Shown: positions 19,253 to 57,328 of the stretch, one piece after another | Position numbering within the stretch: position 1 is the first letter of the stretch | Layout of the letters: each line of letters starts with the position of its first letter | NCBI RefSeq assembly: GCF_024223415.1 | Contig: NZ_CP100500.1 | Length of the DNA: 64,000 bases | Origin: Escherichia coli | Lineage (GTDB): Bacteria; Pseudomonadota; Gammaproteobacteria; Enterobacterales; Enterobacteriaceae | Reading direction: 5' to 3' (one strand) | Position numbers and translations under genes: made by a program | Notes under the pieces: model-generated | Told to the model about the DNA's origin: nothing | The model's input: only the letters and a program-made list of their open reading frames with translations | Databases searched by the model: none

Positions 19253-19759
19253 ATGGCCTTTTTATTGAATAAAAGTGATATGGCCTCCTCCATCGGTATC
19301 TCTGTTCAGGCATTTGATAAATGGGGTGTTCCTCCTGTCGAGCGTCGGGGGAGGGAAGTTTTTTATGACGTTAAAACTGTACTGGAGATAGATCGCGAGC
19401 GGCGACAACACAATCATAGAACACCTGATGACGGGGGCGATCTGGAGGAAAGGCTGCTTCGGGCCAGAGCTGAACTGACAGAAGAACAGGCCGTAGCTCA
19501 AAAACTTAAAAATCAGGTAACCGAAGGTAAGCTCATCGATTCAGACTTCTGCGTTTTCGCCCTCAGCAAGCTGGCGATGGCATTGTCCAGTACGCTTGAT
19601 TCTATTCCGTTATCCATGCAGCGACAGTTCCCGGATTTAACGCCACGTCATCTTGACCATCTGAAAACCCTTATTGCGAAGGGCGCAAATCAGTGTGCGC
19701 GGGCAGGGGATAAATTACCGGATTTGCTGGATGAATATATCAGAGCAACAACTGAATAA
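19253..19759 (+). CDS. nu1: Terminase small subunit (lambda Nu1-like)
   Basis: FCVFALSKLAMALSSTLDSIPLSMQRQFPDLTPRHLDHLK resembles lambda Nu1; start at ATG 19253 (GGAGAGGAG RBS). Confidence 0.8.
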   Translation: MAFLLNKSDMASSIGISVQAFDKWGVPPVERRGREVFYDVKTVLEIDRERRQHNHRTPDDGGDLEERLLRARAELTEEQAVAQKLKNQVTEGKLIDSDFCVFALSKLAMALSSTLDSIPLSMQRQFPDLTPRHLDHLKTLIAKGANQCARAGDKLPDLLDEYIRATTE

Positions 19760-21659: not shown

Positions 21660-21849
21660 ACTGCAGGCGCTGCGTCAGGCGCGCCTTGATTTATTAACCG
21701 GTAAACGGGTGGTGTCTGTCCAGAAAGATGGTCGCAGAATTGAATATACGGCGGCTTCTCTGGATGAGCTTAACCGGGCGATCAATGATGCGGAGTCGGT
21801 ACTGGGGACAACCCGACGTCGCCGTCGTCCGCTGGGAGTGAGGTTATGA
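21643..21849 (+). CDS. W: Head-tail joining protein W
   Basis: 68-aa ORF with LTGKRVVSVQKDGRRIEYTAAS resembling lambda gpW. Confidence 0.8.
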   Translation: MVTVAELQALRQARLDLLTGKRVVSVQKDGRRIEYTAASLDELNRAINDAESVLGTTRRRRRPLGVRL

Positions 21850-29341: not shown

Positions 29342-29757
29342 GTTTTGCCCTGAAACTGGCGCGCGAGATGGGGCGACCCGACTGGCGCGCCATGCTTGCC
29401 GGGATGTCATCCACGGAGTATGCCGACTGGCACCGCTTTTACAGTACCCATTATTTTCATGATGTTCTGCTGGATATGCACTTTTCCGGGCTGACGTACA
29501 CCGTGCTCAGCCTGTTTTTCAGCGATCCGGATATGCATCCGCTGGATTTCAGTCTGCTGAACCGGCGCGAGGCTGACGAAGAGCCTGAAGATGATGTGCT
29601 GATGCAGAAAGCGGCAGGGCTTGCCGGAGGCGTCCGCTTTGGCCCGGACGGGAATGAAGTTATCCCTGCATCCCCGGATGTGGCGGACATGACGGAGGAT
29701 GACGTAATGCTGATGACAGTATCAGAAGGGATCGCAGGAGGAGTCCGGTATGGCTGA
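28919..29757 (+). CDS. T: Tail assembly chaperone G-T fusion made by programmed -1 ribosomal frameshift at GGGAAAG (29312..29318)
   Basis: Slippery heptamer GGGAAAG near the end of G, with the -1 frame open through 29757 (ORF track 29323..29757), as for the lambda G/gpGT frameshift. Confidence 0.7.
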
Positions 29758-37700: not shown

Positions 37701-38216
37701 CAGATCAAACAGAGCACGGATAAAAAACTGGGATCCTGGAATGCCAGCATTGAGCAGATACAGAAAGTTCAGGAGGACACGCGCCGGAACCTGAACAGCA
37801 TGTGGGCTGTGAAGCTGCAGCAGACACGGGATGGACGTCTCTATATTGCAGGTATTGGTGCCGGAATCGAAAATACGTCTGACGGAATTCAGAGTCAGAT
37901 CCTGATGCAGGCAGATCGTATTGCGATGATTAACCCGGAAAATGGCAATACAACACCTTTGTTTGTGGCTCAGGGTGATCAGCTGTTCATGAATGATGTT
38001 TTCATGAAAAAACTGACCGTGGATTTTGCCAGAGTGACGGGAGATATCCGGTCAGATAATTTTCATTCCGGTAGTCCGGGGTGGCGTTTATCAAGAAACG
38101 GCAGCCTTGAAATTAACTCAGGAAGGCCCGGCGCAGGCCGCCTGTTTTTCAATGGCGAGCGAATCGACGTATATGACGATAACAATGTGTTAAGAGTACG
38201 ACTGGGGAGACTGTAA
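34707..38216 (+). CDS. J: Central tail fibre / host-specificity protein (lambda gpJ-like) with an internal ~174-bp tandem duplication (about 37368..37716) and a C-terminal region I cannot match to lambda J
   Basis: 1169-aa ORF in the lambda J position; tandem repeat read directly. Confidence 0.85.
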
Positions 38217-39477: not shown

Positions 39478-41292
39478 ATGGCGGCTGTAAAAATTTCAGG
39501 CGTGCTGAGGGACGGAACCGGAAAACCGGTACCGGGATGCATTATTGAGCTGAAAGCGAAGAGAACCAGCGAGACAGTCATCGCCACGACAGTGGCTTAT
39601 GGCATGCCGGAAGAGACGGGGAGTTACAGTATGGATGTGGAGCCAGGAATATACAGGGTGACACTCAATACAGAAGGTTACCGTCCTTCGTATGTGGGAG
39701 ATATCGTGGTCAGGGAGGATTCTTCACCGGGAACACTGAATAAATTTCTGATGGAGATGGAAGATGCTCCTTATTATCCGAAGGCGTTGTCAGAGCTGGA
39801 GGCTGTGGTGCAGTCCATACTGCACAGAGCAGAGTCCGCGGCATCTGAGGCGGAGGAAGCCCGGAAACGAGCAGCATCTGCCCGGGGACCACGAGGAGAG
39901 AAAGGGGATACCGGCGCTCGTGGTGAAAGAGGCATTACCGGGCCACAGGGGCCAAAAGGTGAAACAGGAGCACGTGGCCCGGCAGGACCACAGGGACCAA
40001 AAGGTGAAACAGGTGAACGCGGTCCGGCAGGTCCACAGGGACTAAAGGGCGATACAGGTGAACGCGGCCCGGCAGGTCCACAGGGACCAAAGGGTGAAAC
40101 AGGTGCACGCGGCCCGGCAGGTCCACAGGGAGCAAAGGGCGAAACAGGTGAACGCGGCCCGGCAGGTCCACAGGGAGCAAAGGGCGAAACAGGTGCACGT
40201 GGTCCGGAAGGCCCTCAGGGTCTGAAGGGAGAAAAGGGTGAGCGAGGAGAAAAAGGCCCTAAGGGGGATAAAGGAGATCCGGGAGGTCCACAGGGACCAA
40301 AGGGGGATACAGGTGAACGCGGCCCGGCAGGTCCACAGGGATCAAAGGGCGATACAGGTGAACGTGGCCCGGCAGGTCCTCAGGGACCAAAGGGGGATAC
40401 AGGTGAACGTGGCCCGGAAGGTCCACAGGGAGCAAAGGGTGAAACAGGTGAACGCGGCCCGGCAGGACCACAGGGACCAAAAGGTGAAACAGGTGAACGC
40501 GGTCCGACAGGTCCACAGGGAGCAAAAGGTGAAACAGGAGCACGCGGTCCGGCAGGTCCTCAGGGACCAAGAGGAGAGTCAGCCCGTGGACAACTGCTGA
40601 ATGGTGATCTGAACCGACTGGGACGAGTGACCGATCAGGGTGATTATTATCAGCCATCAGACAGTGGGGCTACACGAGAAAATAATTATCCGATTCAGAG
40701 AGCGGGTTATCTTCAGGTAAGAGTTGGTGCATGGGGATATTGCCAGCATGAATATACAACCTGGAACCCACCACGAAAGTTCGTAAGAACTGTTACTGGT
40801 AATTTTACCGGTAATGGCCCCTGGTCTGAATGGAAAGAGCTGGGAGCCCAGGGGGAGCGTGGTCCACAGGGACCAAAAGGTGAAACAGGTGCACGCGGTC
40901 CGGCAGGTCCACAGGGACTAAAGGGCGAAACAGGTGCACGTGGCCTGGCAGGTCCTCGGGGGCCAAGAGGGTATACAGGTGAACGCGGCCCGGCAGGTCC
41001 ACAGGGGCCAAGAGGAGAAGCGGGGCGGCCAGCGAGCGTCGGAAGTGTTTATTCCGTGGGGTCTTATGTTCTGGGGATCATAGAACGAAATCATGAGATA
41101 ACAAATACCCGTCAAATACCCGGGTATCGTATCAGACAGGCCGTTATTGTGTCGTCGTCATCGGATAAACTTACAGATATCCGCTTTTTATTTGGCAATC
41201 CTATGCTTGGTACATGGATGTTATGCACAACTAACATGACGGTGAATAATATCAGTGGGACGATTTGGGGCCTGTTTCAGAGAATACTGTGA
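39478..41292 (+). CDS. stf: Side tail fibre protein (Stf-like N-terminus) with long collagen-like Gly-X-Y repeat region
   Basis: N-terminus [18 protein letters not shown] resembles lambda Stf; two blocks of GXY triplets ([19 protein letters not shown]...). Confidence 0.8.
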
Positions 41293-41307
41293 CAGGGGGA
41301 GAAATGA

Positions 41308-41883
41308 ATGAAGGTCGATAAAATCACGTCACCAGTGTGGGCTGACAGGGGTCATACGACCATAAACTGTATAGTGAAGTTTTCAGACGCGGAAACAGAA
41401 TGTGTATTTACAGCAAGTGCGGATGATCCTGAGTCTTACGGTCGTGAAATATTTGAAGCCTGCATAAGAGGTGATGCAGGGCCGGTAGGTGAGTACCGGG
41501 CAAATGATGATATGGCTGTGGAAGAAGCACGCAGGATGAAAAACGCGGAGATAAATGCCTGGCGTGATGCGATGGAGGCGTCAGGGTATGTTTTTGAGCA
41601 CAGAGGACGGAAATGGGATTATGGAAAGGAAACCATGACACGTCTTGGAATGTCGGCATCAGCGGCCAGAGGCGGTGTGTTGCCGGAAGGATTTTTCTGG
41701 ACGGACGCAGAGAATAATGATGTACCGATGACGGCAGATGAACTGATATCCCTGAGTGATGCTGCTGGTAAAGCGATGTTCAGGAAAGGCCTTGAAATAC
41801 ATATAAGGCAAAGGGAGATGAAAAAGGCAATAGCAGAACTGAGTGACAGTGAAACCATTCTGGCGTACAGGGTTGGATGGTGA
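41308..41883 (+). CDS. tfa: Tail fibre assembly/chaperone-like protein
   Basis: 191-aa ORF immediately after the fibre gene; assignment by position and weak similarity. Confidence 0.45.
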   Translation: MKVDKITSPVWADRGHTTINCIVKFSDAETECVFTASADDPESYGREIFEACIRGDAGPVGEYRANDDMAVEEARRMKNAEINAWRDAMEASGYVFEHRGRKWDYGKETMTRLGMSASAARGGVLPEGFFWTDAENNDVPMTADELISLSDAAGKAMFRKGLEIHIRQREMKKAIAELSDSETILAYRVGW

Positions 41884-41892
41884 AACTGATAA

Positions 41893-41930
41893 AAAAACCC
41901 CTCTGAAAATTCTGTCAGAGGGGTGTAGTC
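41893..41930. terminator. Hairpin CCCCTCTGA ... TCAGAGGGG flanked by an A-tract upstream; likely end of the late operon
   Basis: aaaaaaacccctctgaaaattctgtcagaggggtg read directly. Confidence 0.4.
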
Positions 41931-42321
41931 AATAAGGGAATAATATTCAACATGAAGATGTCTTCTGGGAATGTTTACATAGCAAATGCTTTCACTCCGG
42001 TAATTAATTTCTGTGATTAACTGCTTTCGATCAATAAAGGAATTGCAAAAAAGGTGAACTGATTCACAATTGAGTCTGTGATGAATGTAGACTGATGTAG
42101 GAAACGGTTATTCTGACAGCTATATCTGAATGCTCTGCTGACATATGGGGACAAGAACGCTCATATTGTTTTATCGGGGTGCATTTATCCTATAATTCCA
42201 TGTTAACTGTATTGATTGTTAAAATCAATGCAGTGGTGACTCTGAAAGGTATCCTGGAAAAGAATCTCGCCTGCTTATTCAGGGGGGGTTACAGTTTAAT
42301 CTTCTTAACAGGATATACCAT

Positions 42322-43731
42322 ATGAAATTTATAATGGCAAAGAATGTATTGGCAATGGCGGTTACCGGTGCGCTGTTATGTTACTCTGTGGGGGTTATGG
42401 CAGAAGAGAGTTTTAATGTAGATGGATATGAGGTTACTCTGTATGATAATGGTGCGGCAGTAATATCAAAAGGTAATGATGTTAATCTTATTAATACTAT
42501 TACTGGAGCTAATACAGGGCGTATTGTCCCGAATGATTCTATTACGCGTGCTATATTAGCAGCTCCTGAGAATGCTAGGCATATTGTTGCTCAGGATTTG
42601 CTAACTTACCCCATCTACTCAGATGCATTAAAAGCCGAAAACATCAGAAATATAAAAGCAGAAGATATAAAGTCCATTGTTGATACAAAAGAATCACTAC
42701 AAAAAATAATCAAGCCAGAAAACAAGGATGATTATATCGCCGCTGTTAATGCTGGTGGTACCGCTGAGGATTTTATTAAAATTAGTAATACAACATCGGG
42801 ATTGTCATCATTGTATAAAAATGTAGTTGAAGGCCAGAATTTTGTTCTGGATTCATCAGGCCGAATCACTGCTGACGGAAGGGCTGACGGAAATGCTCAG
42901 ACAGTCCCTGTTAAAGAATTCGTCGTGGAGCTGGATAATCGTACCCGCAACCTTGGGGTTGAAGTGAAATCACAGGGAGACAGTCTGCGTGGTGAGATAG
43001 GTGGTGTATACAGAGATGCCCGTGCTCATACTGACAGTCAGGTCACAGCAGTACGTGATGAACTGAAGGCAGAGGGAGACAGTCTGCGCGGTGAGATAGG
43101 CGGTGTATACAGAGATGCCCGTGCTCATACTGACAGTCAGGTTACAGCAGTACGTGATGAACTCAGCAGGGATATTATTGCAGGCACATCGGCAGCGGTG
43201 GCGTATACGGATGCATCTTCTCTTGCTCTTCAGGATGAAATAAAAGAAAAAGCGGATGAAACAGTTCAGGTTTCCCGGGCTTATACAGATAAAAGTGTAC
43301 GGGATGCCCGTAAAGAAGCGAAAAGCCAGGCAGAACATCTCAGCGATGTGCTTGTGAAGAACAGGGCGCAGACGGATGCAGCAATAGCCTCAAATACAGC
43401 AGCGATAAGGAATAACAGTCATCGTCTGGATTTGACGGAAGCCTGGCAGAAGATGGCGACAGAGAGAATGAATAATATGCAGGAGCAGATTAAAGAGAAC
43501 CGGAAGGAGTTAAGGGAGAGTGCAGCCCAGAGCGCGGCACTGGCCGGTCTTTTCCAGCCATACAGTGTTGGAAAATTTAACGCGACAGCAGCCGTTGGTG
43601 GTTACCGTGATGAGCAGGCCATTGCGGTGGGCGTGGGCTACCGTTTCACAGAGAATGTGGCAGGAAAAGTTGCAGTTGCTGCAGGTGGGTCATCCGCATC
43701 GTGGAATGCTGGTGTGAATTTTGAGTTCTGA
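42322..43731 (+). CDS. Trimeric autotransporter adhesin-like protein (YadA-like C-terminal anchor); resembles prophage-encoded Eib immunoglobulin-binding proteins
   Basis: Signal peptide; coiled-coil stalk with 33-aa tandem repeat; C-terminal anchor [10 protein letters not shown] ... [20 protein letters not shown]. Confidence 0.7.
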
Positions 43732-43791
43732 CAGGTCAGGATTTAGATATCTGTCCCGGGGGAGTCCCCCGGGATATAATGAGGTACAGAG

Positions 43792-44247
43792 ATGCTGGAT
43801 ATAATCCTGGCGACGAGAGATATTTATTTTGAAAAAGCCCTGCGAGAGATATTTGGAACCGTAAGCAGTCGAATCAGATATATAGAAGATGCCATATCAG
43901 ACAGAAGAAGGGTGCAGTCAGGCAGGTCATTCAGATATTATTTTGTATTCTGTGATGATGAGTATACAGATATTGTTCGTATTCTTTTTACCGGAGAGGC
44001 CTGCTGTATTCTGAATAAGTCGATGCTGAATCTGAGAGCGGCCGGAGGTGTGTTGACGCTGGAAGAGCGCAGAGCGGTACTGAACCGGTATTACAGAGGT
44101 TTAAGTATTGCGGAGATTACAGAAGAGACGGGGCAGAATGACAAGACGGTATACGGTCATCTTCGTCGTGCACTGCAGCGGTCTGGATTCCGGAAGGGGC
44201 GTTTTATAAAGGGGAGAGAAGCTGCGGGGGATTCAGGTGTTGAATAA
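43792..44247 (+). CDS. Putative LuxR/GerE-type HTH transcriptional regulator
   Basis: C-terminal LTLEERRAVLNRYYRGLSIAEITEETGQNDKTVYGHLRRALQ fits a LuxR-type HTH. Confidence 0.4.
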   Translation: MLDIILATRDIYFEKALREIFGTVSSRIRYIEDAISDRRRVQSGRSFRYYFVFCDDEYTDIVRILFTGEACCILNKSMLNLRAAGGVLTLEERRAVLNRYYRGLSIAEITEETGQNDKTVYGHLRRALQRSGFRKGRFIKGREAAGDSGVE

Positions 44248-44358
44248 TGTATCTTATATTGTGATATCGGTGCTGCTGCTGTTATTTTTTGTTGTATTTG
44301 TGACGAATGGTTAAGAATAAAACATGAGTTGGTGATTATCAGGACAGGTTGCTTGTAT

Positions 44359-44454
44359 ATGAAGATAACAAAGGCGGCATTTATTTTTGCGCTGTCAGTG
44401 TGGAGTGTTGCTGTGATATGTCTTTTATTATTTGTACTGGTTGTTCTGGGATAG
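44359..44454 (+). CDS. Very small hydrophobic peptide (31 aa), possible small membrane protein
   Basis: Own translation MKITKAAFIFALSVWSVAVICLLLFVLVVLG in an AT-rich spacer. Confidence 0.2.
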   Translation: MKITKAAFIFALSVWSVAVICLLLFVLVVLG

Positions 44455-44630
44455 CTATAGTGGAATTATTATTTTTTTAAGACTATGGTTTATATTTTTA
44501 TTCGGCAATATTTCTGTAAACAATTAAATATCAGAAAGGCGTGTTGTATGCGTGAACACGCCTGAGTATGTATACAGAGATTGTTAATTTGGAGAGAATA
44601 ATTACAGTTGTTATTTATTTGACGTCCTGA

Positions 44631-44879
44631 TTAGTGAAAAAACCAGTCATCAGCAGTTTCCCAGACTTCCTGCAGCGTTTCCTGTATGAACTTCTGAGCG
44701 TTTTCTTTATCTACGGCTCTTAAAATTGTCAGTCCGTCATTACTGGCGGATTTTACTATAACCTCCACATCGTCATATCGTTTTCTGATACGGCGAGACA
44801 TTTCCTGTTGTAGAGCAGGTACAGAGCCTTTTGGCATTTTGCTGAATTTTTCTTTAGCGATACAGATCTCAATACGCAT
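44631..44879 (-). CDS. DinI-like protein (prophage-encoded DinI family)
   Basis: [35 protein letters not shown] ... [14 protein letters not shown] resembles E. coli DinI as recalled. Confidence 0.7.
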
Positions 44880-45184
44880 AAAAGTCCCTCTACACTGTGT
44901 TTGTATACAGTATTATTTTTAACTGTATGGATAAACAGTGTCAAGGTTTTCAATTTCGAAGCGGGAGTCAAGGGCTTTGTGTTGCTGAACTTATGCAAAA
45001 TTTTTTTGCATCATAAATCCAACAACACATTCAATAACACATTACTGCATAACCATGAAAATAAATGTATTTTTATTTAATTTCACACATATCACAATTG
45101 ATGCATTTTTTAGTGATTAACAGCGCCATAAGGAAACTCTCAAAACAACACAAACCGGGCGGGCATTATACGCGCATTCTTTAC

Positions 45185-46033
45185 TCAAACCAGTTTTTTC
45201 ACCAGTGCCTCGCTGTGACGAATGCGCTCAGGGGCCAGTTCGAGATCCTGCTGGATTAGCGCAATGAACAGCAAATCTGTAAGCATTCCCTGAGCGTGAC
45301 AAGCGGAGATCGACGCACTATTCGTCGCCTGTTCTTCGGCAATAGTATACAGGCAATGGGATGCTCGTTGTTGCAGAGCATTCGGCGTGAAACCGGTAAT
45401 TGCCAGCACCTTTCCACCCACGCGCAGCATCTCATCCGCCGCGAGATTCAACTCACGTCGTACACCAGTGTAAGAGATGGCTAATAACAGATCGTCCGGT
45501 GAGGATGCCTGTACAGTAGCGAGCAACGCATGCATATCGCGTTCTGCGGCAGCATTGAAACCAATCTTCATCAGTTTCCAGGCAAAGTTTTGCGCTACCA
45601 GACCCGAAGCGCCAATGCCAGTCAAAATAATCCGCCGTGCAGAACGCAACATCACCACGCATTCATGTAATTTCTCTTCACTGTTAACGTTCAGTGTCGC
45701 ATACATGGCAGCCGTGTTTTCTTTTATGAGCTTTTCACCCACCAGTCGCAGCGGATCATCACCGCGAATTTGGTTATGAATGGGGACAGAAGGGGATTCC
45801 GGCTGGCTCGCCAGAGCTTCGCTTAACGCGAGTTTTAAGGCAGGAAAACCTTTATAGCCGAGTTTTTGCGCGAACTTCACGACGCTGGACTGACTGACTC
45901 CGGCTTCGTTGGCCAGTTGCTGAGAGCTTAAATGGCGCGCCGTATCAGGTTGTAGCAGCAGATAATCCGCCAGTTTTTTATCACTCTGGGCAAGCCCCTG
46001 GTAACGCTGACGGATACGAAGTAAGCCGTTCAT
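45185..46033 (-). CDS. yfhH: RpiR-family transcriptional regulator (HTH plus SIS domain), YfhH-like
   Basis: HTH SQQLANEAGVSQSSVVKFAQKLGYKGF and SIS-domain region; conserved neighbour of pgpC/tadA; start taken at MNGLLRIRQ. Confidence 0.85.
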   Translation of the reverse strand: MNGLLRIRQRYQGLAQSDKKLADYLLLQPDTARHLSSQQLANEAGVSQSSVVKFAQKLGYKGFPALKLALSEALASQPESPSVPIHNQIRGDDPLRLVGEKLIKENTAAMYATLNVNSEEKLHECVVMLRSARRIILTGIGASGLVAQNFAWKLMKIGFNAAAERDMHALLATVQASSPDDLLLAISYTGVRRELNLAADEMLRVGGKVLAITGFTPNALQQRASHCLYTIAEEQATNSASISACHAQGMLTDLLFIALIQQDLELAPERIRHSEALVKKLV

Positions 46034-46241
46034 ATCTTTCCTCGCGATGAAATAGTGGCGACAACAGGCAATATGAGACACACGCGAGTGAATTTTATAT
46101 TCCATTGCCGCTAATTGCCATGAATTAAAAATTCCAGTTAGCCATGATGCGGTCGATTGTTGCCGGAAAAGTGATGATCTATCTGTTAGGCTATGTAGTA
46201 GCGAAAATTAATCAGGATGTTTCAGTCCAGAGGAGTATGGT

Positions 46242-46877
46242 TTGGCAACTCACGAGCGTCGTGTGGTGTTTTTTGACTTAGATGGAACATTGCATCAGCA
46301 GGATATGTTCGGCAGTTTTCTGCGCTATTTACTGCGTCGCCAACCGCTGAATGCGTTACTTGTCCTGCCGTTGTTGCCGATTATAGCCATTGCGTTATTG
46401 ATAAAAGGTCGTGCGGCACGCTGGCCGATGAGTCTGCTTCTGTGGGGATGCACTTTTGGTCACAATGAAGCGCGTTTGCAGGCGTTGCAGGCCGATTTCG
46501 TACGCTGGTTTCGTGACAATGTTACCGCCTTTCCGCTGGTTCAGGAGCGATTAACCACCTACCTGTTAAGTTCTGATGCTGATATCTGGTTGATTACCGG
46601 CTCTCCGCAGCCGCTGGTTGAAGCGGTTTATTTCGATACGCCCTGGCTGCCGCGAGTTAATCTTATCGCCAGCCAAATTCAGCGTGGCTATGGTGGTTGG
46701 GTATTGACGATGCGTTGTCTGGGACATGAAAAGGTCGCACAACTGGAGCGCAAAATCGGCACGCCGCTGCGGCTGTACAGTGGCTATAGCGACAGTAATC
46801 AGGACAATCCGCTGCTTTATTTCTGTCAGCATCGTTGGCGAGTAACCCCGCGCGGTGAACTCCAGCAACTGGAATAG
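46242..46877 (+). CDS. pgpC: Phosphatidylglycerophosphatase C (HAD-family)
   Basis: FFDLDGTL HAD motif I, TM helix; conserved position next to tadA. Confidence 0.85.
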   Translation: MATHERRVVFFDLDGTLHQQDMFGSFLRYLLRRQPLNALLVLPLLPIIAIALLIKGRAARWPMSLLLWGCTFGHNEARLQALQADFVRWFRDNVTAFPLVQERLTTYLLSSDADIWLITGSPQPLVEAVYFDTPWLPRVNLIASQIQRGYGGWVLTMRCLGHEKVAQLERKIGTPLRLYSGYSDSNQDNPLLYFCQHRWRVTPRGELQQLE

Positions 46878-46889
46878 AGTAAAGCATAG

Positions 46890-48991
<2,102 letters not shown>

Positions 48992-49156
48992 TTAGTTAAT
49001 TCTCTGTGTCGTGCGCGTCCCAGCTTGAAAAAACGTAATAATAGTGAAAGGTTTACTCATAAATGAGCGGCATTTTGCGTAAACCTGCGCCAGATGGCAA
49101 CTTATTACAGCCATTGGCGGCACGCGTTGCTAATTCACGATGGTGATTTTATTTCC

Positions 49157-49172
49157 ACGCAAACGGTTTCGT
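49157..49172. promoter_or_regulatory. PurR operator box upstream of purL, with a TATAAT -10 element at 49190..49195
   Basis: acgcaaacggtttcgt resembles the PurR box consensus (ACGCAAACGTTTGCGT). Confidence 0.75.
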
Positions 49173-49248
49173 CAGCGCATCAGATTCTTTATAATGACGC
49201 CCGTTTCCCCCCCTTGGGTACACCGAAAGCTTAGAAGACGAGAGACTT

Positions 49249-52200
49249 ATGATGGAAATTCTGCGTGGTTCGCCTGCATTGTCGGCATTCCGAATCAACA
49301 AACTGCTGGCACGTTTTCAGGCTGCCAGGCTCCCGGTTCACAATATTTACGCCGAGTATGTCCATTTTGCTGACCTCAATGCGCCGTTAAACGATGATGA
49401 GCACGCACAACTTGAACGCCTGCTGAAATATGGCCCGGCACTCGCCAGCCACGCCCCGCAAGGCAAACTCCTGCTGGTGACCCCGCGTCCTGGCACCATC
49501 TCTCCCTGGTCTTCGAAAGCGACCGATATTGCCCATAACTGCGGGCTACAACAGGTAAACCGCCTTGAGCGCGGCGTTGCTTACTATATAGAAGCCGGTA
49601 CGCTGACCAATGAACAATGGCAGCAGGTTACCGCTGAACTGCACGACCGCATGATGGAAACGGTCTTTTTTGCTTTAGATGATGCAGAGCAGTTGTTTGC
49701 CCACCATCAACCGACTCCGGTTACCAGCGTTGATTTGCTGGGGCAGGGCCGTCAGGCGCTGATCGACGCTAACCTGCGTCTTGGCCTGGCTCTGGCGGAA
49801 GATGAAATTGACTATCTGCAGGATGCTTTCACAAAGCTTGGTCGTAACCCGAACGACATCGAGCTGTATATGTTCGCTCAGGCGAACTCCGAGCACTGCC
49901 GCCACAAAATTTTTAACGCCGACTGGATTATCGACGGTGAACAACAGCCGAAATCGCTGTTCAGGATGATCAAAAATACTTTCGAAACCACGCCAGATCA
50001 CGTTCTCTCTGCTTATAAAGATAACGCCGCCGTAATGGAAGGTTCTGAAGTGGGCCGCTACTTTGCTGACCACGAAACGGGCCGCTACGATTTCCATCAG
50101 GAACCGGCGCATATTCTGATGAAAGTCGAAACTCACAACCACCCGACGGCGATTTCTCCGTGGCCGGGCGCGGCGACCGGTTCTGGCGGCGAAATTCGTG
50201 ATGAAGGCGCCACCGGACGCGGTGCGAAACCGAAGGCTGGTCTGGTTGGTTTCTCCGTATCCAACCTGCGAATTCCTGGCTTCGAACAGCCGTGGGAAGA
50301 AGATTTCGGTAAGCCTGAGCGCATTGTCACCGCGCTGGACATCATGACCGAAGGCCCGCTGGGCGGTGCGGCGTTTAACAACGAATTTGGTCGTCCGGCA
50401 CTGAACGGCTACTTCCGTACTTATGAAGAAAAAGTGAACAGCCACAATGGCGAAGAGCTGCGCGGTTATCACAAACCGATCATGCTGGCGGGCGGGATCG
50501 GCAACATTCGCGCCGATCACGTACAAAAAGGCGAGATCAACGTCGGTGCGAAGCTGGTCGTTCTCGGCGGCCCGGCAATGAACATCGGTCTTGGCGGCGG
50601 AGCGGCGTCTTCCATGGCGTCAGGTCAGTCTGATGCCGACCTCGACTTTGCTTCCGTACAGCGCGACAACCCGGAGATGGAGCGTCGCTGCCAGGAAGTG
50701 ATCGACCGTTGCTGGCAGCTTGGTGATGCCAACCCAATCCTGTTTATCCACGACGTCGGCGCTGGCGGTCTTTCTAACGCGATGCCGGAACTGGTGAGCG
50801 ATGGCGGGCGCGGCGGTAAATTTGAACTGCGCGATATTCTAAGCGACGAACCGGGCATGAGCCCGCTGGAAATCTGGTGTAACGAATCCCAGGAACGCTA
50901 CGTGCTGGCGGTTGCTGCCGATCAATTACCGCTGTTTGACGAACTGTGTAAGCGTGAGCGCGCACCCTACGCGGTGATTGGTGAAGCGACCGAAGAACTG
51001 CATCTTTCTCTGCACGATCGTCATTTTGATAATCAGCCGATCGATCTGCCGCTGGACGTCCTGCTTGGTAAAACGCCGAAGATGACCCGCGATGTACAAA
51101 CGCTGAAAGCGAAGGGCGATGCGCTGGTCCGTGAAGGGATCACCATTGCAGACGCGGTGAAACGCGTACTGCATCTGCCGACCGTGGCGGAGAAAACTTT
51201 CCTGGTGACCATCGGTGACCGCAGCGTAACCGGCATGGTGGCGCGCGATCAGATGGTGGGGCCGTGGCAGGTGCCGGTCGCTAACTGCGCGGTCACTACC
51301 GCCAGCCTCGACAGCTACTACGGTGAAGCGATGGCGATTGGCGAGCGTGCGCCGGTTGCGCTGCTGGATTTCGCCGCCTCTGCCCGTCTGGCGGTCGGTG
51401 AAGCGTTAACCAATATTGCCGCAACACAGATTGGCGATATCAAACGCATTAAACTTTCCGCCAACTGGATGGCGGCGGCAGGCCACCCTGGTGAAGATGC
51501 GGGCCTGTATGAAGCCGTTAAAGCCGTGGGCGAAGAGCTTTGTCCGGCGCTGGGCCTGACGATCCCGGTGGGTAAAGACTCTATGTCGATGAAAACCCGC
51601 TGGCAGGAAGGTAACGAAGAGCGCGAAATGACGTCGCCGCTGTCGCTGGTGATTTCTGCATTTGCCCGCGTGGAAGATGTACGTCACACCATCACGCCGC
51701 AGCTTTCTACCGAAGATAACGCACTGCTGCTGATTGATTTGGGCAAAGGCAATAACGCGCTGGGCGCAACGGCGCTGGCGCAGGTTTATCGTCAGCTTGG
51801 CGACAAACCGGCAGATGTACGCGATGTCGCGCAACTGAAAGGCTTCTATGACGCGATTCAGGCGCTGGTTGCACAGCGTAAGCTGCTGGCGTATCACGAC
51901 CGCTCTGATGGCGGTCTGCTGGTAACGCTGGCGGAAATGGCCTTTGCTGGTCATTGTGGCATTGACGCGGATATCGCCACTCTGGGTGACGATCGCCTGG
52001 CGGCGTTGTTTAACGAAGAACTGGGTGCGGTGATTCAGGTTCGTGCCGCTGACCGTGAAGCGGTCGAGTCCGTACTGGCACAGCATGGGCTTGCGGATTG
52101 CGTCCATTATGTTGGGCAGGCGGTTTCCGGTGACCGTTTTGTGATTACCGCCAACGGGCAGACTGTATTCAGCGAAAGCCGCACTACGTTGCGTGTCTGG

Positions 52201-53136
52201 TGGGCAGAAACTACCTGGCAGATGCAGCGCCTGCGTGACAACCCGGAGTGTGCCGACCAGGAGCACCAGGCGAAATCAAACGACGCCGATCCTGGCCTGA
52301 ATGTGAAACTGTCGTTCGATATCAACGAAGATGTGGCAGCACCGTATATTGCCACTGGCGCACGTCCGAAAGTTGCCGTGCTGCGTGAGCAGGGCGTGAA
52401 CTCGCATGTTGAAATGGCGGCAGCTTTCCACCGTGCGGGCTTCGATGCTATCGACGTGCATATGAGTGACCTGCTGACTGGACGCACGGGACTGGAGGAT
52501 TTTCACGCCCTGGTCGCGTGCGGAGGTTTCTCCTACGGTGATGTGCTGGGTGCCGGTGAAGGTTGGGCGAAGTCTATCCTGTTCAATGACCGTGTACGCG
52601 ATGAGTTTGCAACCTTCTTCCATCGTCCGCAAACGCTGGCTCTGGGGGTATGTAACGGTTGCCAGATGATGTCTAACCTGCGTGAACTGATCCCGGGGAG
52701 CGAGTTGTGGCCACGTTTTGTGCGCAATACCTCCGATCGCTTTGAAGCGCGTTTCAGCCTGGTAGAAGTAACCCAAAGCCCGTCTCTGCTGTTGCAGGGG
52801 ATGGTGGGCTCGCAAATGCCGATTGCTGTCTCTCACGGTGAAGGGCGCGTTGAAGTACGCGATGCGGCGCATCTGGCGGCGCTGGAAAGCAAAGGGCTGG
52901 TGGCGCTGCGCTACGTCGATAACTTCGGCAAAGTCACCGAAACCTACCCGGCTAACCCGAACGGTTCCCCGAACGGTATTACTGCGGTCACTACCGAAAG
53001 CGGTCGTGTCACCATTATGATGCCGCACCCGGAACGTGTATTCCGTACCGTCAGCAACTCCTGGCATCCGGAAAACTGGGGGGAAGATGGTCCGTGGATG
53101 CGCATTTTCCGCAATGCGCGTAAGCAGCTGGGGTAA
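49249..53136 (+). CDS. purL: Phosphoribosylformylglycinamidine synthase
   Basis: 1295-aa ORF starting [26 protein letters not shown]; C-terminal glutamine amidotransferase region. Confidence 0.95.
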
Positions 53137-53199
53137 GCCGTCAAACTCATTGGTTTTGCAGCCCGGATGAGGCATGGCATTAAATACAACCGCTATTAT

Positions 53200-53228
53200 A
53201 AGCTCCCAACTTCGGGAGCTTTTTTGTG
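53200..53228 (+). terminator. purL rho-independent terminator
   Basis: gctcccaacttcgggagc hairpin followed by TTTTTTG. Confidence 0.75.
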
Positions 53229-53340
53229 TCTGTAAATCACGACAATGGGTGGTTTGCCGTGTCGCTTTTTGGTGACACTTAACTGATTGATTTTAATGTG
53301 ATCTAATAAGTTTTTCTTAAGTTGTCTCTTTTTAGCGACA
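53227..53340. promoter_or_regulatory. Three TGTC-N10-GACA boxes (GlrR activator binding sites) upstream of glmY
   Basis: tgtctgtaaatcacgaca (53227..53244), tgtcgctttttggtgaca (53260..53277), tgtctctttttagcgaca (53323..53340). Confidence 0.8.
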
Positions 53341-53429
53341 TAGTGGCTGATTTACATTCAAATAGCGGGGAAGCCATAAACCCCTCAAAGCAACGTATAA
53401 TCAGTACGTTACCAAACTATTTTCTTTAT

Positions 53430-53445
53430 TGGCACAGTTACTGCA
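53430..53445 (+). promoter_or_regulatory. Sigma-54 promoter of glmY (TGGCAC-N5-CTGCA)
   Basis: tggcacagttactgcat read directly. Confidence 0.75.
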
Positions 53446-53456
53446 TAATAGTAACC

Positions 53457-53642
53457 AGTGGCTCATTCACCGACTTATGTCAGCCCCTTCGGGACGTGCT
53501 ACATAAAATTCGAATGACGCACAACAAGGTGCCTGCCGTCCAACTTCTGATATCAGCGTAGCTATATCAACCATCGGGCGAAACGTCGAGTTAGGCACCG
53601 CCTTATTCCATAACAAAGCCGGGTAATTCCCGGCTTTGTTGT
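53457..53642 (+). ncRNA. glmY: GlmY small regulatory RNA
   Basis: Begins agtggctcattcaccgacttatgtcagcccc downstream of the sigma-54 promoter, ends at terminator aaagccgggtaattcccggctttgttgt; located between purL and glrK as in E. coli K-12. Confidence 0.8.
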
Positions 53643-53698
53643 ATCTGAACTTCCCCTCGGTTAGCATCAGGCTATTCGCGTCTGACGAGAGTAACACC

Positions 53699-55126
53699 TT
53701 GAAACGCTGGCCCGTTTTTCCCCGCTCATTACGACAACTGGTAATGCTGGCATTTTTGCTGATTCTGCTGCCCCTGTTGGTGCTGGCATGGCAAGCCTGG
53801 CAAAGCCTGAATGCGCTTAGCGACCAGGCGGCGCTGGTCAACCGCACCACGCTTATCGATGCCCGGCGCAGCGAAGCAATGACCAACGCGGCGCTGGAGA
53901 TGGAGCGTAGCTACCGTCAGTATTGCGTGCTGGACGACCCTACGCTTGCGAAGGTTTATCAAAGCCAGCGCAAGCGTTACAGCGAAATGCTCGATGCCCA
54001 CGCAGGCGTACTGCCAGACGATAAACTTTACCAGGCATTGCGTCAGGACTTGAACAATCTGGCCCAACTTCAGTGCAACAACAGTGGTCCCGATGCTGCT
54101 GCTGCCGCGCGTCTGGAAGCCTTTGCCAGTGCCAATACCGAAATGGTACAGGCCACGCGCACAGTAGTGTTCTCTCGTGGGCAGCAACTTCAGCGTGAAA
54201 TCGCCGAACGTGGGCAATATTTTGGTTGGCAATCGCTGGTGCTATTTCTGGTGAGTCTGGTAATGGTACTGCTTTTCACGCGGATGATTATTGGTCCGGT
54301 GAAAAATATCGAGAGGATGATCAACCGGTTGGGGGAAGGGCGTTCTCTGGGCAATAGCGTTTCGTTCAGTGGACCGAGCGAGTTACGCTCGGTTGGGCAA
54401 CGTATTCTTTGGTTAAGTGAGCGCCTGTCATGGCTGGAATCCCAACGCCATCAATTTTTAAGACATTTATCTCATGAATTAAAAACGCCACTGGCGAGTA
54501 TGCGCGAGGGCACTGAATTACTGGCTGATCAGGTTGTCGGGCCGCTTACGCCAGAGCAAAAAGAGGTGGTGAGCATTCTTGATAGCAGCAGCCGCAATTT
54601 GCAAAAACTGATCGAACAACTGCTTGATTACAACCGTAAACAGGCGGACAGTGCGGTGGAACTGGAGAATGTTGAATTAGCACCGCTGGTGGAGACAGTG
54701 GTTTCTGCTCATAGCCTGCCCGCACGGGCTAAAATGATGCATACCGACGTCGATCTCAAAGCAACAGCTTGCCTGGCGGAGCCAATGCTGCTGATGAGCG
54801 TACTGGATAATCTTTACTCCAATGCGGTGCACTACGGGGCTGAATCCGGTAACATTTGCCTTCGCAGCAGTTTACATGGTGCGCGGGTTTATATTGATGT
54901 CATCAATACAGGCACGCCCATTCCGCAAGAGGAACGCGCCATGATCTTCGAACCCTTTTTTCAGGGAAGCCACCAGCGAAAAGGGGCGGTGAAGGGCAGC
55001 GGTCTGGGATTAAGCATTGCCAGGGATTGTATTCGCCGTATGCAAGGGGAACTGTATCTGGTCGACGAGAGCGGGCAAGACGTTTGTTTCCGCATTGAAT
55101 TACCGTCGTCGAAAAACACGAAATAA
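53699..55126 (+). CDS. glrK: Sensor histidine kinase GlrK
   Basis: TM helix, HAMP and HisKA (LSHELKTPLASM) / HATPase regions; start taken at the TTG preceding KRWPVFPRSL. Confidence 0.9.
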   Translation: MKRWPVFPRSLRQLVMLAFLLILLPLLVLAWQAWQSLNALSDQAALVNRTTLIDARRSEAMTNAALEMERSYRQYCVLDDPTLAKVYQSQRKRYSEMLDAHAGVLPDDKLYQALRQDLNNLAQLQCNNSGPDAAAAARLEAFASANTEMVQATRTVVFSRGQQLQREIAERGQYFGWQSLVLFLVSLVMVLLFTRMIIGPVKNIERMINRLGEGRSLGNSVSFSGPSELRSVGQRILWLSERLSWLESQRHQFLRHLSHELKTPLASMREGTELLADQVVGPLTPEQKEVVSILDSSSRNLQKLIEQLLDYNRKQADSAVELENVELAPLVETVVSAHSLPARAKMMHTDVDLKATACLAEPMLLMSVLDNLYSNAVHYGAESGNICLRSSLHGARVYIDVINTGTPIPQEERAMIFEPFFQGSHQRKGAVKGSGLGLSIARDCIRRMQGELYLVDESGQDVCFRIELPSSKNTK

Positions 55127-55290: not shown

Positions 55291-56004
55291 ATGCGACACA
55301 TTTTTCAACGATTATTGCCCCGACGGCTGTGGCTGGCAGGGCTGCCATGTCTGGCATTGCTGGGTTGCGTGCAGAATCACAATAAGCCAGCCATTGATAC
55401 GCCAGCAGAAGAAAAAATTCCGGTTTATCAACTGGCTGACTATCTTTCTACTGAATGTAGCGACATCTGGGCGCTGCAAGGTAAATCAACCGAAACCAAT
55501 CCGCTTTACTGGCTGCGGGCGATGGATTGTGCTGATCGTTTAATGCCTGCGCAGTCGCGTCAGCAAGCTCGCCAATATGACGACGGCAGCTGTCAAAATA
55601 CCTTTAAACAAGGGATTTTGCTCGCCGACGCCAAAATTACGCCGTATGAGCGCCGCCAGCTGGTCGCGCGCATTGATGCGTTAAGTACCGAGATCCCGGC
55701 ACAGGTTCGCCCTCTGTATCAACTCTGGCGCGACGGTCAGGCGCTACAACTGCAACTGGCGGAAGAGCGCCAACGCTACGGCAAACTCCAGCAATCCAGC
55801 GACAGCGAGCTGGATACATTGCGCCAGCAACATCACGTTCTACAACAGCAGCTGGAACTCACCACCCGCAAGCTGGAAAACCTGACCGATATTGAACGCC
55901 AGCTCTCGACCCGCAAACCGGCTGGAAATTTCTCGCCGGATACGCCGCACGAGGGTGAAAAGCCCGCGCCATCCACCCATGAGGTCACTCCTGATGAGCC
56001 ATAA
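55291..56004 (+). CDS. qseG: Outer-membrane lipoprotein QseG
   Basis: MRHIFQRLLPRRLWLAGLPCLALLGC lipoprotein signal; conserved between glrK and glrR. Confidence 0.85.
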   Translation: MRHIFQRLLPRRLWLAGLPCLALLGCVQNHNKPAIDTPAEEKIPVYQLADYLSTECSDIWALQGKSTETNPLYWLRAMDCADRLMPAQSRQQARQYDDGSCQNTFKQGILLADAKITPYERRQLVARIDALSTEIPAQVRPLYQLWRDGQALQLQLAEERQRYGKLQQSSDSELDTLRQQHHVLQQQLELTTRKLENLTDIERQLSTRKPAGNFSPDTPHEGEKPAPSTHEVTPDEP

Positions 56005-57328
56005 ACCTGCGCATTTATTATTGGTCGATGACGATCCGGGATTGCTGAAACTGCTTGGCCTGCGCCTGACCAGCGAAGGCTACAGTGTGGTCACGGCGGA
56101 AAGTGGCGCTGAAGGATTACGGGTACTGAATCGCGAAAAAGTAGATTTAGTTATCAGCGACCTGCGGATGGATGAAATGGACGGTATGCAGCTGTTTGCT
56201 GAAATCCAGAAAGTGCAGCCGGGAATGCCGGTAATTATTCTTACCGCGCATGGTTCTATTCCCGATGCCGTTGCTGCAACACAGCAGGGCGTTTTTAGTT
56301 TCCTCACCAAGCCTGTCGATAAAGACGCGCTATATCAGGCAATTGATGATGCGCTGGAACAATCCGCGCCAGCCACCGACGAACGCTGGCGCGAGGCGAT
56401 TGTCACCCGCAGCCCGCTGATGCTGCGTTTGCTGGAACAGGCGCGGCTGGTGGCGCAATCAGACGTCAGCGTTTTGATTAATGGCCAGAGCGGCACCGGG
56501 AAAGAGATTTTCGCCCAGGCTATCCACAACGCCAGCCCGCGCAATAGCAAACCATTTATTGCTATTAACTGTGGTGCATTGCCTGAGCAATTGCTGGAGT
56601 CGGAGCTGTTTGGTCATGCGCGTGGCGCGTTTACTGGCGCTGTCAGCAATCGCGAAGGTTTATTCCAGGCAGCGGAAGGCGGAACGCTATTTCTCGATGA
56701 GATTGGCGATATGCCTGCGCCGTTGCAGGTCAAACTGTTGCGCGTGTTGCAGGAGCGTAAAGTGCGCCCGCTGGGCAGTAACCGCGATATTGATATCAAT
56801 GTGCGGATTATTTCTGCCACTCACCGTGATCTGCCAAAAGCGATGGCGCGCGGGGAATTCCGCGAAGATCTCTATTACCGCCTCAACGTTGTCAGCCTGA
56901 AAATTCCGGCACTGGCGGAGCGCACAGAAGACATTCCGCTACTGGCAAATCACCTGTTGCGCCAGGCGGCAGAGCGACATAAACCGTTTGTCCGCGCGTT
57001 TTCCACCGATGCGATGAAACGCCTGATGACCGCGAGCTGGCCGGGTAATGTGCGCCAGTTGGTCAACGTGATTGAACAGTGCGTGGCGCTGACCTCATCT
57101 CCGGTGATTAGCGATGCATTAGTAGAGCAGGCGCTGGAGGGTGAAAATACGGCGCTGCCAACCTTTGTTGAGGCACGTAATCAGTTTGAACTCAACTATT
57201 TGCGTAAGCTGCTGCAAATTACCAAAGGCAACGTCACCCACGCGGCGAGAATGGCGGGGCGCAACCGGACAGAATTTTATAAACTGCTTTCCCGACACGA
57301 GCTGGATGCAAACGATTTCAAGGAATGA
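55994..57328 (+). CDS. glrR: Sigma-54-dependent response regulator GlrR
   Basis: Receiver domain (LLVDDDPGL ... DLRMDEMDG), AAA+ sigma-54 interaction domain ([14 protein letters not shown]) and C-terminal HTH. Confidence 0.95.

What the first reader, a model, noticed from the sequence alone, without database searches (positions are those of the whole stretch)
53227..53642. Intact glmY sRNA module (three TGTC-N10-GACA boxes, sigma-54 promoter, sRNA, terminator) between purL and glrK
Three perfectly spaced TGTC-N10-GACA boxes, a TGGCAC-N5-CTGCA sigma-54 promoter and a terminated ~185-nt transcript unit reproduce the known GlmY regulatory architecture. It is not novel, but it is a real non-coding gene that ORF-based annotation would miss.
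Basis: partly seen in the sequence, partly recalled or inferred. Interest (0 to 1): 0.25.

Follow-up and report, generated by a model that had tools for sequence, protein, structure and literature searches.

The report
Ordinary E. coli glmY sRNA gene
This is the well-known E. coli small RNA gene glmY with its complete, textbook control region, sitting where it always sits between purL and glrK/qseE; it is real and intact but entirely ordinary.

Summary
The finding is confirmed and is already known. Window 53457-53604 (+) matches Rfam RF00128 GlmY_tke1 over the full model at 147.1 bits (gathering score 33, E 8e-33). The 184-nt gene (53457-53640) aligns base for base with the annotated K-12 glmY (b4441) apart from one base (+54, in a predicted internal loop). 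It is 100% identical to the allele in many E. coli genomes, including O157:H7. All three TGTC-N10-GACA boxes in the 64-kb window lie here (53227-44, 53260-77, 53323-40), and the only TGGCAC-N5-YTGCW lies at 53430-45, 27 nt before +1. These are the overlapping sigma-70 -10 hexamer CATAAT (53444-49), two perfect IHF consensus sites flanking box 3 (53280-92, 53399-411), and the 148-nt processed core. Flanks are purL upstream and glrK/qseE, qseG, glrR/qseF and glnB downstream. The linker lacks the glmS-pairing site, so the RNA is GlmY rather than its paralogue GlmZ. In 95 loci from other Enterobacterales the synteny, box spacing (32-33 bp and 63-64 bp) and RNA structure are conserved (95.8% of cells paired, 8 pairs with compensatory changes). 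Novelty: none. The only practical point is that PGAP/RefSeq records leave this gene unannotated.

The parts
49249..53136 (+). purL (FGAM synthase), upstream neighbour (context)
   Evidence: Pfam FGAR-AT/AIRS_C/GATase_5 domains; annotated purL in SCU-316 and K-12
53200..53221 (+). Terminator-like hairpin plus T-run after purL, immediately before ABS1
   Evidence: Terminator scan
53227..53244 (.). GlrR/QseF binding site ABS1, TGTCTGTAAATCACGACA (-230..-213)
   Evidence: Exact TGTC-N10-GACA match. Identical to K-12. ABS1 is reported as dispensable (PMC3045617)
53260..53277 (.). GlrR/QseF binding site ABS2, TGTCGCTTTTTGGTGACA (-197..-180)
   Evidence: Exact match. The two differences from K-12 lie only in the N10 spacer. 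Reported essential for sigma-54 activity
53280..53292 (-). IHF site 1 (distal), AATCAATCAGTTA
   Evidence: Perfect WATCARNNNNTTR match. Lies between ABS2 and ABS3, as published; site 1 is essential for the sigma-54 promoter (PMC3045617)
53323..53340 (.). GlrR/QseF binding site ABS3, TGTCTCTTTTTAGCGACA (-134..-117)
   Evidence: Exact match; identical to K-12; reported essential
53399..53411 (+). IHF site 2 (proximal), AATCAGTACGTTA
   Evidence: Perfect WATCARNNNNTTR match, between ABS3 and the promoter. With site 1, two matches in 230 bp has P about 1e-4
53430..53445 (+). Sigma-54 promoter TGGCAC-N5-CTGCA (GG at -26/-25, GC at -14/-13 relative to A53457)
   Evidence: Only match in the window; identical to K-12; a GG-N10-GC element is conserved in 86 of 89 orthologous loci
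53444..53449 (+). [quoted passage not shown]
   Evidence: Read directly from the sequence. Published -10 sequence overlapping the sigma-54 -12 element (PMC3045617). The generic sigma-70 scan finds nothing, which fits a weak -35
53457..53640 (+). glmY primary transcript, 184 nt
   Evidence: Aligns end to end with the K-12 ncRNA glmY b4441, with one difference at +54 (53510). MFE -64.2 kcal/mol, z = -5.5. 100% identical to many E. coli genomes
53457..53604 (+). 148-nt GlmY core (stem-loops 1 and 2), same length as the published processed, active form
   Evidence: Rfam RF00128, 147.1 bits, model positions 1-163 of 163. 184 to 148 nt processing is described in PMC4152352. Structure supported by covariation
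53610..53642 (+). Terminator hairpin (14-bp stem, loop UAAUU) with an interrupted U-tract
   Evidence: Local fold of 53605-53648, -23.4 kcal/mol. In the fold of the 184-nt RNA the stem is 12 bp, 53612-53640. Read-through into qseE reported as virtually absent (PMC6075780)
53639..53674 (+). Inferred sigma-70 promoter of qseEGF (TTGTAT, 17 bp, TAGCAT, start at A53674)
   Evidence: Inference only. A53674 lies 25 nt before the TTG start codon, the distance published for the qseE start site (PMC6075780); hexamers read
53699..55126 (+). glrK/qseE sensor kinase (475 aa, TTG start)
   Evidence: HAMP, HisKA and HATPase_c domains; annotated qseE/glrK; start codon checked
55291..56004 (+). qseG/yfhG lipoprotein (237 aa)
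   Evidence: Pfam YfhG lipoprotein, 263.6 bits; start position
55994..57328 (+). glrR/qseF, the sigma-54-dependent response regulator that binds ABS1-3 (444 aa)
   Evidence: Response_reg, Sigma54_activat and AAA_lid_14 domains; start position

Best explanation
This is the chromosomal glmY gene of an Escherichia coli strain, complete with its native control region.

Shown here from sequence:
- a 184-nt transcription unit starting at A53457;
- a sigma-54 promoter (53430-45) overlapped by a sigma-70 -10 hexamer (CATAAT, 53444-49);
- three GlrR/QseF sites (ABS1-3) between -230 and -117;
- two IHF sites on either side of ABS3;
- a terminator hairpin ending the RNA 58 bp before the TTG start of glrK/qseE;
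- intact genes for the cognate three-component system (glrK/qseE, qseG, glrR/qseF) immediately downstream.

Inferred from published work on the near-identical K-12 locus (PMC3045617, PMC4152352, PMC6075780, PMC7073468):
- Phosphorylated GlrR/QseF binds the ABS sites, and IHF bends the DNA so that the activator reaches sigma-54 RNA polymerase. The weak sigma-70 promoter gives basal transcription from the same start site.
- The 184-nt RNA is trimmed at its 3' end to 148 nt.
- When glucosamine-6-phosphate (GlcN6P) is scarce, GlcN6P-free RapZ stimulates QseE/QseF, glmY transcription rises, and GlmY binds and sequesters RapZ.
- With RapZ sequestered, RNase E no longer cleaves the paralogue GlmZ. 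Full-length GlmZ then pairs with the glmS 5' UTR with the help of Hfq and activates GlmS synthesis.
- GlmY itself does not pair with glmS. It acts as a protein-sequestering decoy.
For: - Family match: Rfam RF00128, 147.1 bits against a gathering score of 33, E 8e-33, full model.
- Identity: collinear with K-12 glmY b4441 and differing at one base of 184; every consensus base of ABS1-3, both IHF sites, the sigma-54 element and CATAAT is identical to K-12. The 184-nt sequence is 100% identical to many E. coli genomes, and 5,425 of 5,426 genomes have a match covering at least 80% of it, with one copy at the median.
- Control elements: three exact TGTC-N10-GACA boxes clustered in 114 bp (cluster expectation about 1.3e-6). 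Unique sigma-54 motif 27 nt before +1. Two perfect IHF consensus sites flanking ABS3.
- Structure: the fold gives SL1, SL2 and a terminator, z = -5.5.
- Synteny: purL, glmY, glrK, qseG, glrR, glnB.
- GlmY rather than GlmZ: the linker's duplex with glmS -45..-16 is -7.2 kcal/mol, no better than shuffles (49% reach it). The K-12 GlmZ linker gives -21.1 kcal/mol (0.6% of shuffles reach it).
- Cross-genus check on 95 loci: purL upstream and/or glrK downstream was found in every locus, and both in most; a gene was missed only in some loci, most of them with the match close to an end of the stored sequence. Three boxes with at most one mismatch in 80 of 89 loci, spacings 32/33 and 63/64 bp, sigma-54 element in 86 of 89. 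Rfam structure 95.8% paired against 30-44% for slid controls, 8 pairs with compensatory changes, covariation score 0.099 against 0.042 for shuffles (0 of 500 reach it).
- Mechanism: from PMC3045617, PMC4152352, PMC7073468 and PMC6075780.
Against: Nothing in the sequence contradicts this explanation.

Limits of the evidence:
- Expression, the start site, 3' processing and RapZ binding are inferred from near-identity to K-12, not measured for this strain.
- rpoN, rapZ, glmZ and glmS lie outside the window, so the rest of the circuit could not be checked.
- The generic scans did not flag the sigma-70 promoter or the glmY terminator. This fits a weak -35 and an interrupted U-tract, but it means those two elements rest on homology and folding.
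- In the covariation test, helices 3, 4 and 6 lie partly inside the search pattern used to fetch the loci, so their invariance is partly imposed by the search.
Confidence: 0.98

Rival explanations
1. The RNA is GlmZ, or a GlmZ-like base-pairing sRNA, rather than the decoy GlmY. The two are homologous and belong to the same Rfam clan (CL00011).
For: GlmY and GlmZ share sequence and structure through the two stem-loops (alignment; PMC4152352). The Rfam output keeps only the best family of a clan, so the GlmZ score was not shown.
Against: RF00128 GlmY was the best-scoring family of the clan. The linker between SL2 and the terminator shows no glmS complementarity beyond chance, whereas the K-12 GlmZ linker does. 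The location between purL and glrK is the glmY locus; glmZ lies next to hemY. E. coli glmZ has a plain sigma-70 promoter with no ABS or sigma-54 motifs (PMC3045617).
Confidence: 0.01
2. The region encodes a small protein: one of the mechanical ORFs at 53322-53561 (+, 79 aa) or 53467-53886 (-, 139 aa). The RNA match would then be secondary.
For: Both ORFs exist in the six-frame list.
Against: Neither ORF matches any Pfam family at E up to 1. Both start with TTG, and the plus-strand ORF would begin inside ABS3. Orthologous RNA cores differ in length by amounts that are not multiples of three (144, 148, 149, 150, 153 ... 171 nt), which would break any reading frame. Variation follows base-pair covariation. 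The minus-strand ORF overlaps the real glrK start on the opposite strand.
Confidence: 0.01
3. The motifs are chance matches, or this is a decayed, non-functional copy of glmY.
For: Three TGTC-N10-GACA hits in 64 kb is within the range of shuffles (6 of 100). Four IHF consensus hits equals the chance expectation for the whole window.
Against: The hits are clustered in the published order and spacing. The cluster expectation is about 1.3e-6 for the boxes, and P is about 1e-4 for two IHF sites in 230 bp. The same geometry recurs in about 80 other species. The gene is 100% identical to the allele carried by many E. coli genomes, and the cognate regulator genes are intact.
Confidence: 0.005

Closest known systems
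E. coli K-12 glmY (b4441; formerly tke1/sroF), Rfam RF00128
   Same: Same locus between purL and glrK. Same length (184 nt) and same +1. Identical sigma-54 and sigma-70 promoter, identical consensus bases in ABS1-3 and both IHF sites, and identical terminator. 183 of 184 RNA bases are identical.
   Different: One base in the RNA (U instead of A at +54, in a predicted internal loop of SL1). Eleven substitutions between -188 and -83, all outside the consensus positions of the listed elements. A different deletion end-point in a REP-like remnant upstream of the purL terminator. The +54 U allele is itself common, for example in O157:H7.
GlmZ (sraJ/ryiA), Rfam RF00083, the paralogue in the same clan
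   Same: Homologous 5' two-thirds with the same two-stem-loop architecture, the part reported to be recognised by RapZ (PMC4152352).
   Different: GlmZ carries a 15-nt glmS-pairing site in the linker, lies next to hemY, and in E. coli has only a sigma-70 promoter. The window RNA lacks the pairing site and has the sigma-54, ABS and IHF architecture.
glmY loci of other Enterobacterales (Salmonella, Yersinia, Serratia, Pectobacterium, Dickeya and others)
   Same: Synteny, three ABS with spacings of 32-33 and 63-64 bp, a sigma-54 promoter and the RNA fold.
   Different: The window has the short SL1 and SL2 apices (148-nt core, against 164-171 nt in Yersinia, Serratia and Pectobacterium). ABS3 starts 107 bp before the promoter motif, against about 122-135 bp in most of the loci with longer cores. 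It also has the CATAAT sigma-70 hexamer that Göpel et al. report for Escherichia, Klebsiella, Salmonella, Citrobacter, Enterobacter and Cronobacter.

Membership tests
GlmY sRNA (Rfam RF00128) | Scores above the curated gathering threshold of the GlmY covariance model over the full model | tested here: met
   147.1 bits against a gathering score of 33, E 8e-33, model positions 1-163 of 163, window 53457-53604
GlmY sRNA (Rfam RF00128) | Two large stem-loops followed by a single-stranded linker and a terminator hairpin, with pairs maintained in evolution | tested here: met
   The MFE structure reproduces SL1, SL2 and the terminator, z = -5.5. On 76 distinct orthologues, 95.8% of cells are paired (30-44% when slid) and 8 pairs show compensatory changes
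GlmY sRNA (Rfam RF00128) | Conserved position between purL and the glrK(qseE)-qseG-glrR(qseF) operon, on the same strand | tested here: met
   The same synteny holds in the 95 loci from other genera, as far as the stored flanks allow
GlmY sRNA (Rfam RF00128) | Sigma-54 promoter (-24 GG, -12 GC) placed so as to start transcription at the first base of the RNA | tested here: met
   TGGCAC-N5-CTGCA at 53430-45, 27 nt before A53457, unique in the window and identical to K-12. Promoter activity was not measured
GlmY sRNA (Rfam RF00128) | Three GlrR/QseF sites TGTC-N10-GACA more than 100 bp upstream | tested here: met
   Three exact sites between -230 and -117; spacing of 33 and 63 bp, as in orthologues; definition from PMC3045617
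GlmY sRNA (Rfam RF00128) | Two IHF sites (WATCARNNNNTTR) flanking ABS3 | tested here: met
   Perfect matches at 53280-92 (-) and 53399-411 (+); definition from PMC3045617
GlmY sRNA (Rfam RF00128) | Escherichia-type overlapping sigma-70 promoter (-10 CATAAT over the sigma-54 -12 element) | tested here: met
   CATAAT at 53444-49; definition from PMC3045617
GlmY sRNA (Rfam RF00128) | No glmS base-pairing site (the feature that separates GlmY from GlmZ) | tested here: met
   Duplex of the linker with glmS -45..-16 is -7.2 kcal/mol (49% of shuffles reach it), against -21.1 kcal/mol for GlmZ (0.6%)
GlmY sRNA (Rfam RF00128) | Processed to about 148 nt, binds and sequesters RapZ, accumulates when GlcN6P is depleted | not testable with these tools
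   Inferred from 183 of 184 bases being identical to the K-12 RNA on which this was shown (PMC4152352; PMC7073468)
GlmZ sRNA (Rfam RF00083) | 15-nt glmS-complementary site in the linker between SL2 and the terminator | tested here: not met
GlmZ sRNA (Rfam RF00083) | Located next to hemY (the hemY-aslA intergenic region) | tested here: not met
   The window locus lies between purL and glrK. K-12 glmZ lies next to hemY

The most novel reading that the evidence does not exclude
The least ordinary reading the evidence leaves open concerns natural variation at this locus. The +54 U allele lies in the SL1 internal loop and is shared with O157:H7 and many other strains. The substitutions in the ABS2 spacer and around IHF site 1 also differ from K-12. 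Either could measurably change RapZ binding or QseF/IHF-dependent induction, giving strain-specific tuning of GlcN6P homeostasis or, in EHEC-like strains, of virulence-gene control. Nothing here supports this beyond the existence of the polymorphisms.
Probability: 0.05. Interest if true: 0.2.

Novelty: already known. Interest (0 to 1): 0.07.

Why it matters
It matters only for annotation. GlmY is a well-studied regulator of cell-envelope precursor synthesis and, in EHEC, of virulence genes. Even so, PGAP-annotated RefSeq E. coli records list no feature at this position, so pipelines that rely on ORFs or on those records will leave a gap of about 560 bp between purL and qseE. Recording glmY and its control elements closes that gap. 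It raises no new biological question.

Tried and rejected
- Generic promoter and terminator scan. It found neither the sigma-70 promoter nor the glmY terminator, only the purL terminator. This was uninformative for those two elements, which I settled by homology and folding instead.
- Unrestricted RNAduplex of whole GlmY or GlmZ against the glmS leader. Energies were indistinguishable from shuffles for both RNAs, so I dropped the test. I replaced it with a test restricted to the published interaction regions, which separates the two RNAs cleanly.
- Longest stop-free run across the RNA core in orthologues. This was uninformative, because a 148-nt stretch nearly always has an open frame among the six. 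I used length differences that are not multiples of three and the absence of Pfam hits instead.
- Window-wide IHF consensus count. It equals the chance expectation (4 against 4.04). Only the local clustering and the published positions give it meaning.
- GlmZ identity, a protein-coding reading and chance or decayed motifs were each considered and rejected (see the rival explanations).
- I did not use the protein-homology, structure-prediction or metagenome tools, because nothing in the question needed them.

Full report
**Observation.** TGTC-N10-GACA occurs exactly three times in the 64-kb window, at 53227-53244, 53260-53277 and 53323-53340. A count of three is not remarkable in itself: 0.93 are expected and 6 of 100 shuffles reach three. 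What is remarkable is that all three fall within 114 bp, for which the expected number of such clusters is about 1.3e-6. TGGCAC-N5-YTGCW occurs once, at 53430-53445. Rfam RF00128 (GlmY_tke1) matches 53457-53604 on the + strand over the whole model at 147.1 bits, against a gathering score of 33, with E 8e-33.

**Identity and organism.** The region 53137-53700 matches 5,425 of 5,426 complete E. coli genomes. Aligned with K-12 MG1655 and strain SCU-316, the window is identical to SCU-316 apart from a 13-bp indel in a REP-like remnant just after purL, outside the module. The K-12 record annotates ncRNA glmY (b4441, 184 nt) between glrK and purL, and this maps onto window 53457-53640. Listing every difference from K-12 shows that none touches a consensus base of ABS1-3, the IHF sites, the sigma-54 element or the sigma-70 hexamer. 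Two differences lie in the N10 spacer of ABS2 and one in the NNNN of IHF site 1. The single RNA difference is U for A at +54 (53510), in a predicted internal loop of stem-loop 1. The 184-nt sequence is 100% identical to the allele in many E. coli genomes, including O157:H7.

Göpel et al. 2011 (PMC3045617) describe the E. coli glmY control region. It has three GlrR sites (TGTCN10GACA) more than 100 bp upstream, of which ABS2 and ABS3 are essential and ABS1 dispensable. Two IHF sites (WATCARNNNNTTR) flank ABS3, and the distal one is essential. A sigma-54 promoter is perfectly overlapped by a sigma-70 promoter whose -10 hexamer, CATAAT, covers the -12 element, and both start at the same base. The window has all of these:
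- perfect IHF consensus matches at 53280-53292 (-) and 53399-53411 (+). The window-wide count equals chance, but two matches in this 230-bp stretch has P of about 1e-4;
- CATAAT at 53444-53449.

The generic sigma-70 scan finds nothing, as expected for a weak promoter with a poor -35.

**The RNA.** The 184-nt RNA folds into stem-loop 1 (nt 2-66), stem-loop 2 (nt 72-143) and a terminator hairpin (nt 156-184), with MFE -64.2 kcal/mol and z = -5.5. Folded alone, the 3' region forms a 14-bp stem at -23.4 kcal/mol. Its U-tract is interrupted (UUUGUUGU), which is probably why the simple scan missed it. The 148-nt Rfam hit has the same length as the published processed, active form (PMC4152352).

**Flanks.** Upstream are mltF and purL. 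Downstream are glrK/qseE (HAMP, HisKA and HATPase_c; TTG start at 53699), qseG (YfhG lipoprotein), glrR/qseF (Response_reg plus Sigma54_activat), glnB and hmp. The regulator that reads the three boxes is therefore encoded intact about 2.3 kb downstream. The 58-bp spacer between glmY and glrK contains TTGTAT, 17 bp, TAGCAT, with A53674 lying 25 nt before the start codon. That is the distance published for the qseEGF start site (PMC6075780). This promoter assignment is an inference.

**GlmY or GlmZ.** The two RNAs are homologous through the stem-loops, so I tested the feature that separates them. An unrestricted duplex calculation was uninformative. I then restricted it to the published regions: the linker between SL2 and the terminator, against glmS -45..-16, using K-12 glmZ and glmS. 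The GlmZ linker pairs at -21.1 kcal/mol and only 0.6% of shuffles do as well. The window RNA's linker gives -7.2 kcal/mol, and 49% of shuffles do as well. The window RNA therefore lacks the glmS-pairing site, as GlmY should.

**Related loci elsewhere.** One plain-DNA scan of the species-representative genome collection, using a GlmY-specific 3' pattern, returned 95 loci. They come from Serratia, Yersinia, Pectobacterium, Dickeya, Brenneria, Klebsiella, Citrobacter, Kluyvera, Kosakonia, Raoultella, Escherichia and others.
- Every locus shows purL upstream and/or glrK downstream, and most show both; the few misses are mostly loci where the match lies close to an end of the stored sequence.
- Of the 89 loci with at least 420 bp upstream, 80 have three boxes with at most one mismatch, and 36 have three perfect boxes, as the window does.
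- ABS1 to ABS2 spacing is 32 or 33 bp, and ABS2 to ABS3 spacing is 63 or 64 bp.
- 86 of the 89 have the GG-N10-GC element.

The window's geometry (33 bp, 63 bp, and 107 bp from ABS3 to the promoter) is the layout of the Escherichia, Citrobacter and Klebsiella group. I aligned 76 distinct RNA cores (A2) and projected the Rfam structure onto the alignment. On it, 95.8% of cells are paired, against 30-44% when partners are slid. Eight pairs show compensatory changes, for example A-U/U-A split 40:36 and C-G/A-U split 41:31. The covariation score is 0.099 against 0.042 for shuffles, and none of 500 shuffles reaches it. One caveat applies: helices 3, 4 and 6 lie partly within the search pattern, so their invariance is partly imposed by the search.

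**Mechanism.** The sequence shows the parts; the function is inferred from published work on the near-identical K-12 locus. GlcN6P-free RapZ stimulates QseE/QseF phosphorylation. QseF-P bound at the ABS sites, with IHF, activates the sigma-54 promoter. GlmY is trimmed to 148 nt and sequesters RapZ. RNase E then no longer cleaves GlmZ, and GlmZ with Hfq activates glmS translation. GlmY bound to RapZ also damps QseE/QseF, closing a negative feedback loop (PMC7073468; PMC4152352). The partners rpoN, rapZ, glmZ and glmS are outside the window and could not be checked.

**Rivals.** The GlmZ reading is rejected. A protein-coding reading of the overlapping mechanical ORFs is rejected for three reasons: no Pfam hit at E up to 1, orthologue lengths that differ by amounts not divisible by three, and variation that follows base-pairing. 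Chance motifs or a decayed copy are rejected by clustering, cross-genus conservation and 100% identity to a widespread allele.

**Verdict.** This is an already known gene in its usual place. Interest is low; the only practical value is filling an annotation gap.

Noticed in passing
window 1-45080: Most of the window is a lambdoid-type prophage. PHROGs hits: DNA polymerase 1411-3477(-), exonuclease 5256-6560(-), helicase-primase 9220-11364, large terminase 19674-21659, portal 21846-23438, tape measure 29750-32329, tail fibre J 34707-38216, tail fibre 39478-41292, and an adhesin/YadA-like protein 42322-43731. The core chromosome (yfhH, yfhB, tadA, mltF, purL) resumes near 45083. Only 2 of 5,426 complete E. 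coli genomes cover at least 80% of 41000-53700.
   Followed up: partly
window 272-355 (-), 4363-4446 (-), 4472-4545 (-): Three further Rfam hits above gathering score lie inside the prophage: sRNA-Xcc1 (79.8 bits), C4 antisense RNA (70.6 bits) and isrK (50.9 bits, just above its threshold of 50). C4 and isrK are adjacent.
   Followed up: no
window 53170-53181: A 13-bp indel in a REP-like palindrome between the purL stop codon and the purL terminator. The window lacks TCACGCCGCATCC (between 53175 and 53176), which SCU-316 has. The other best-matching genomes show the same 577-bp span against the 564-bp query. K-12 lacks 17 bp at the same spot. Because of this indel, no complete E. coli genome in the collection is 100% identical over 53137-53700; the best is 97.7%.
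   Followed up: partly
window 53457-53640 and RefSeq hits H1, H13-H18: PGAP-annotated RefSeq E. coli records carry no feature under glmY ('none'). Only the curated K-12 record annotates it.
   Followed up: yes
window 53639-53674: The probable sigma-70 promoter of qseEGF overlaps the end of the glmY terminator: TTGTAT, 17 bp, TAGCAT, with A53674 lying 25 nt before the TTG start codon. This matches the published start-site distance. Inference only.
   Followed up: partly
L049 (CACSKA010000009.1), match at 1691-1721: An assembly labelled 'Chryseobacterium sp. 18061' carries a typical enterobacterial purL-glmY-glrK locus with the Escherichia/Citrobacter-type promoter geometry. The assembly is probably contaminated or mislabelled.
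   Followed up: no
L051 and L052 (Brenneria sp. hezel4-2-4, two scaffolds): The same species has two scaffolds with an identical glmY upstream geometry (383/351/288, with the sigma-54 motif at 164). glrK was detected on only one of them. This is probably an assembly duplication or a real duplication at a contig end.
   Followed up: no
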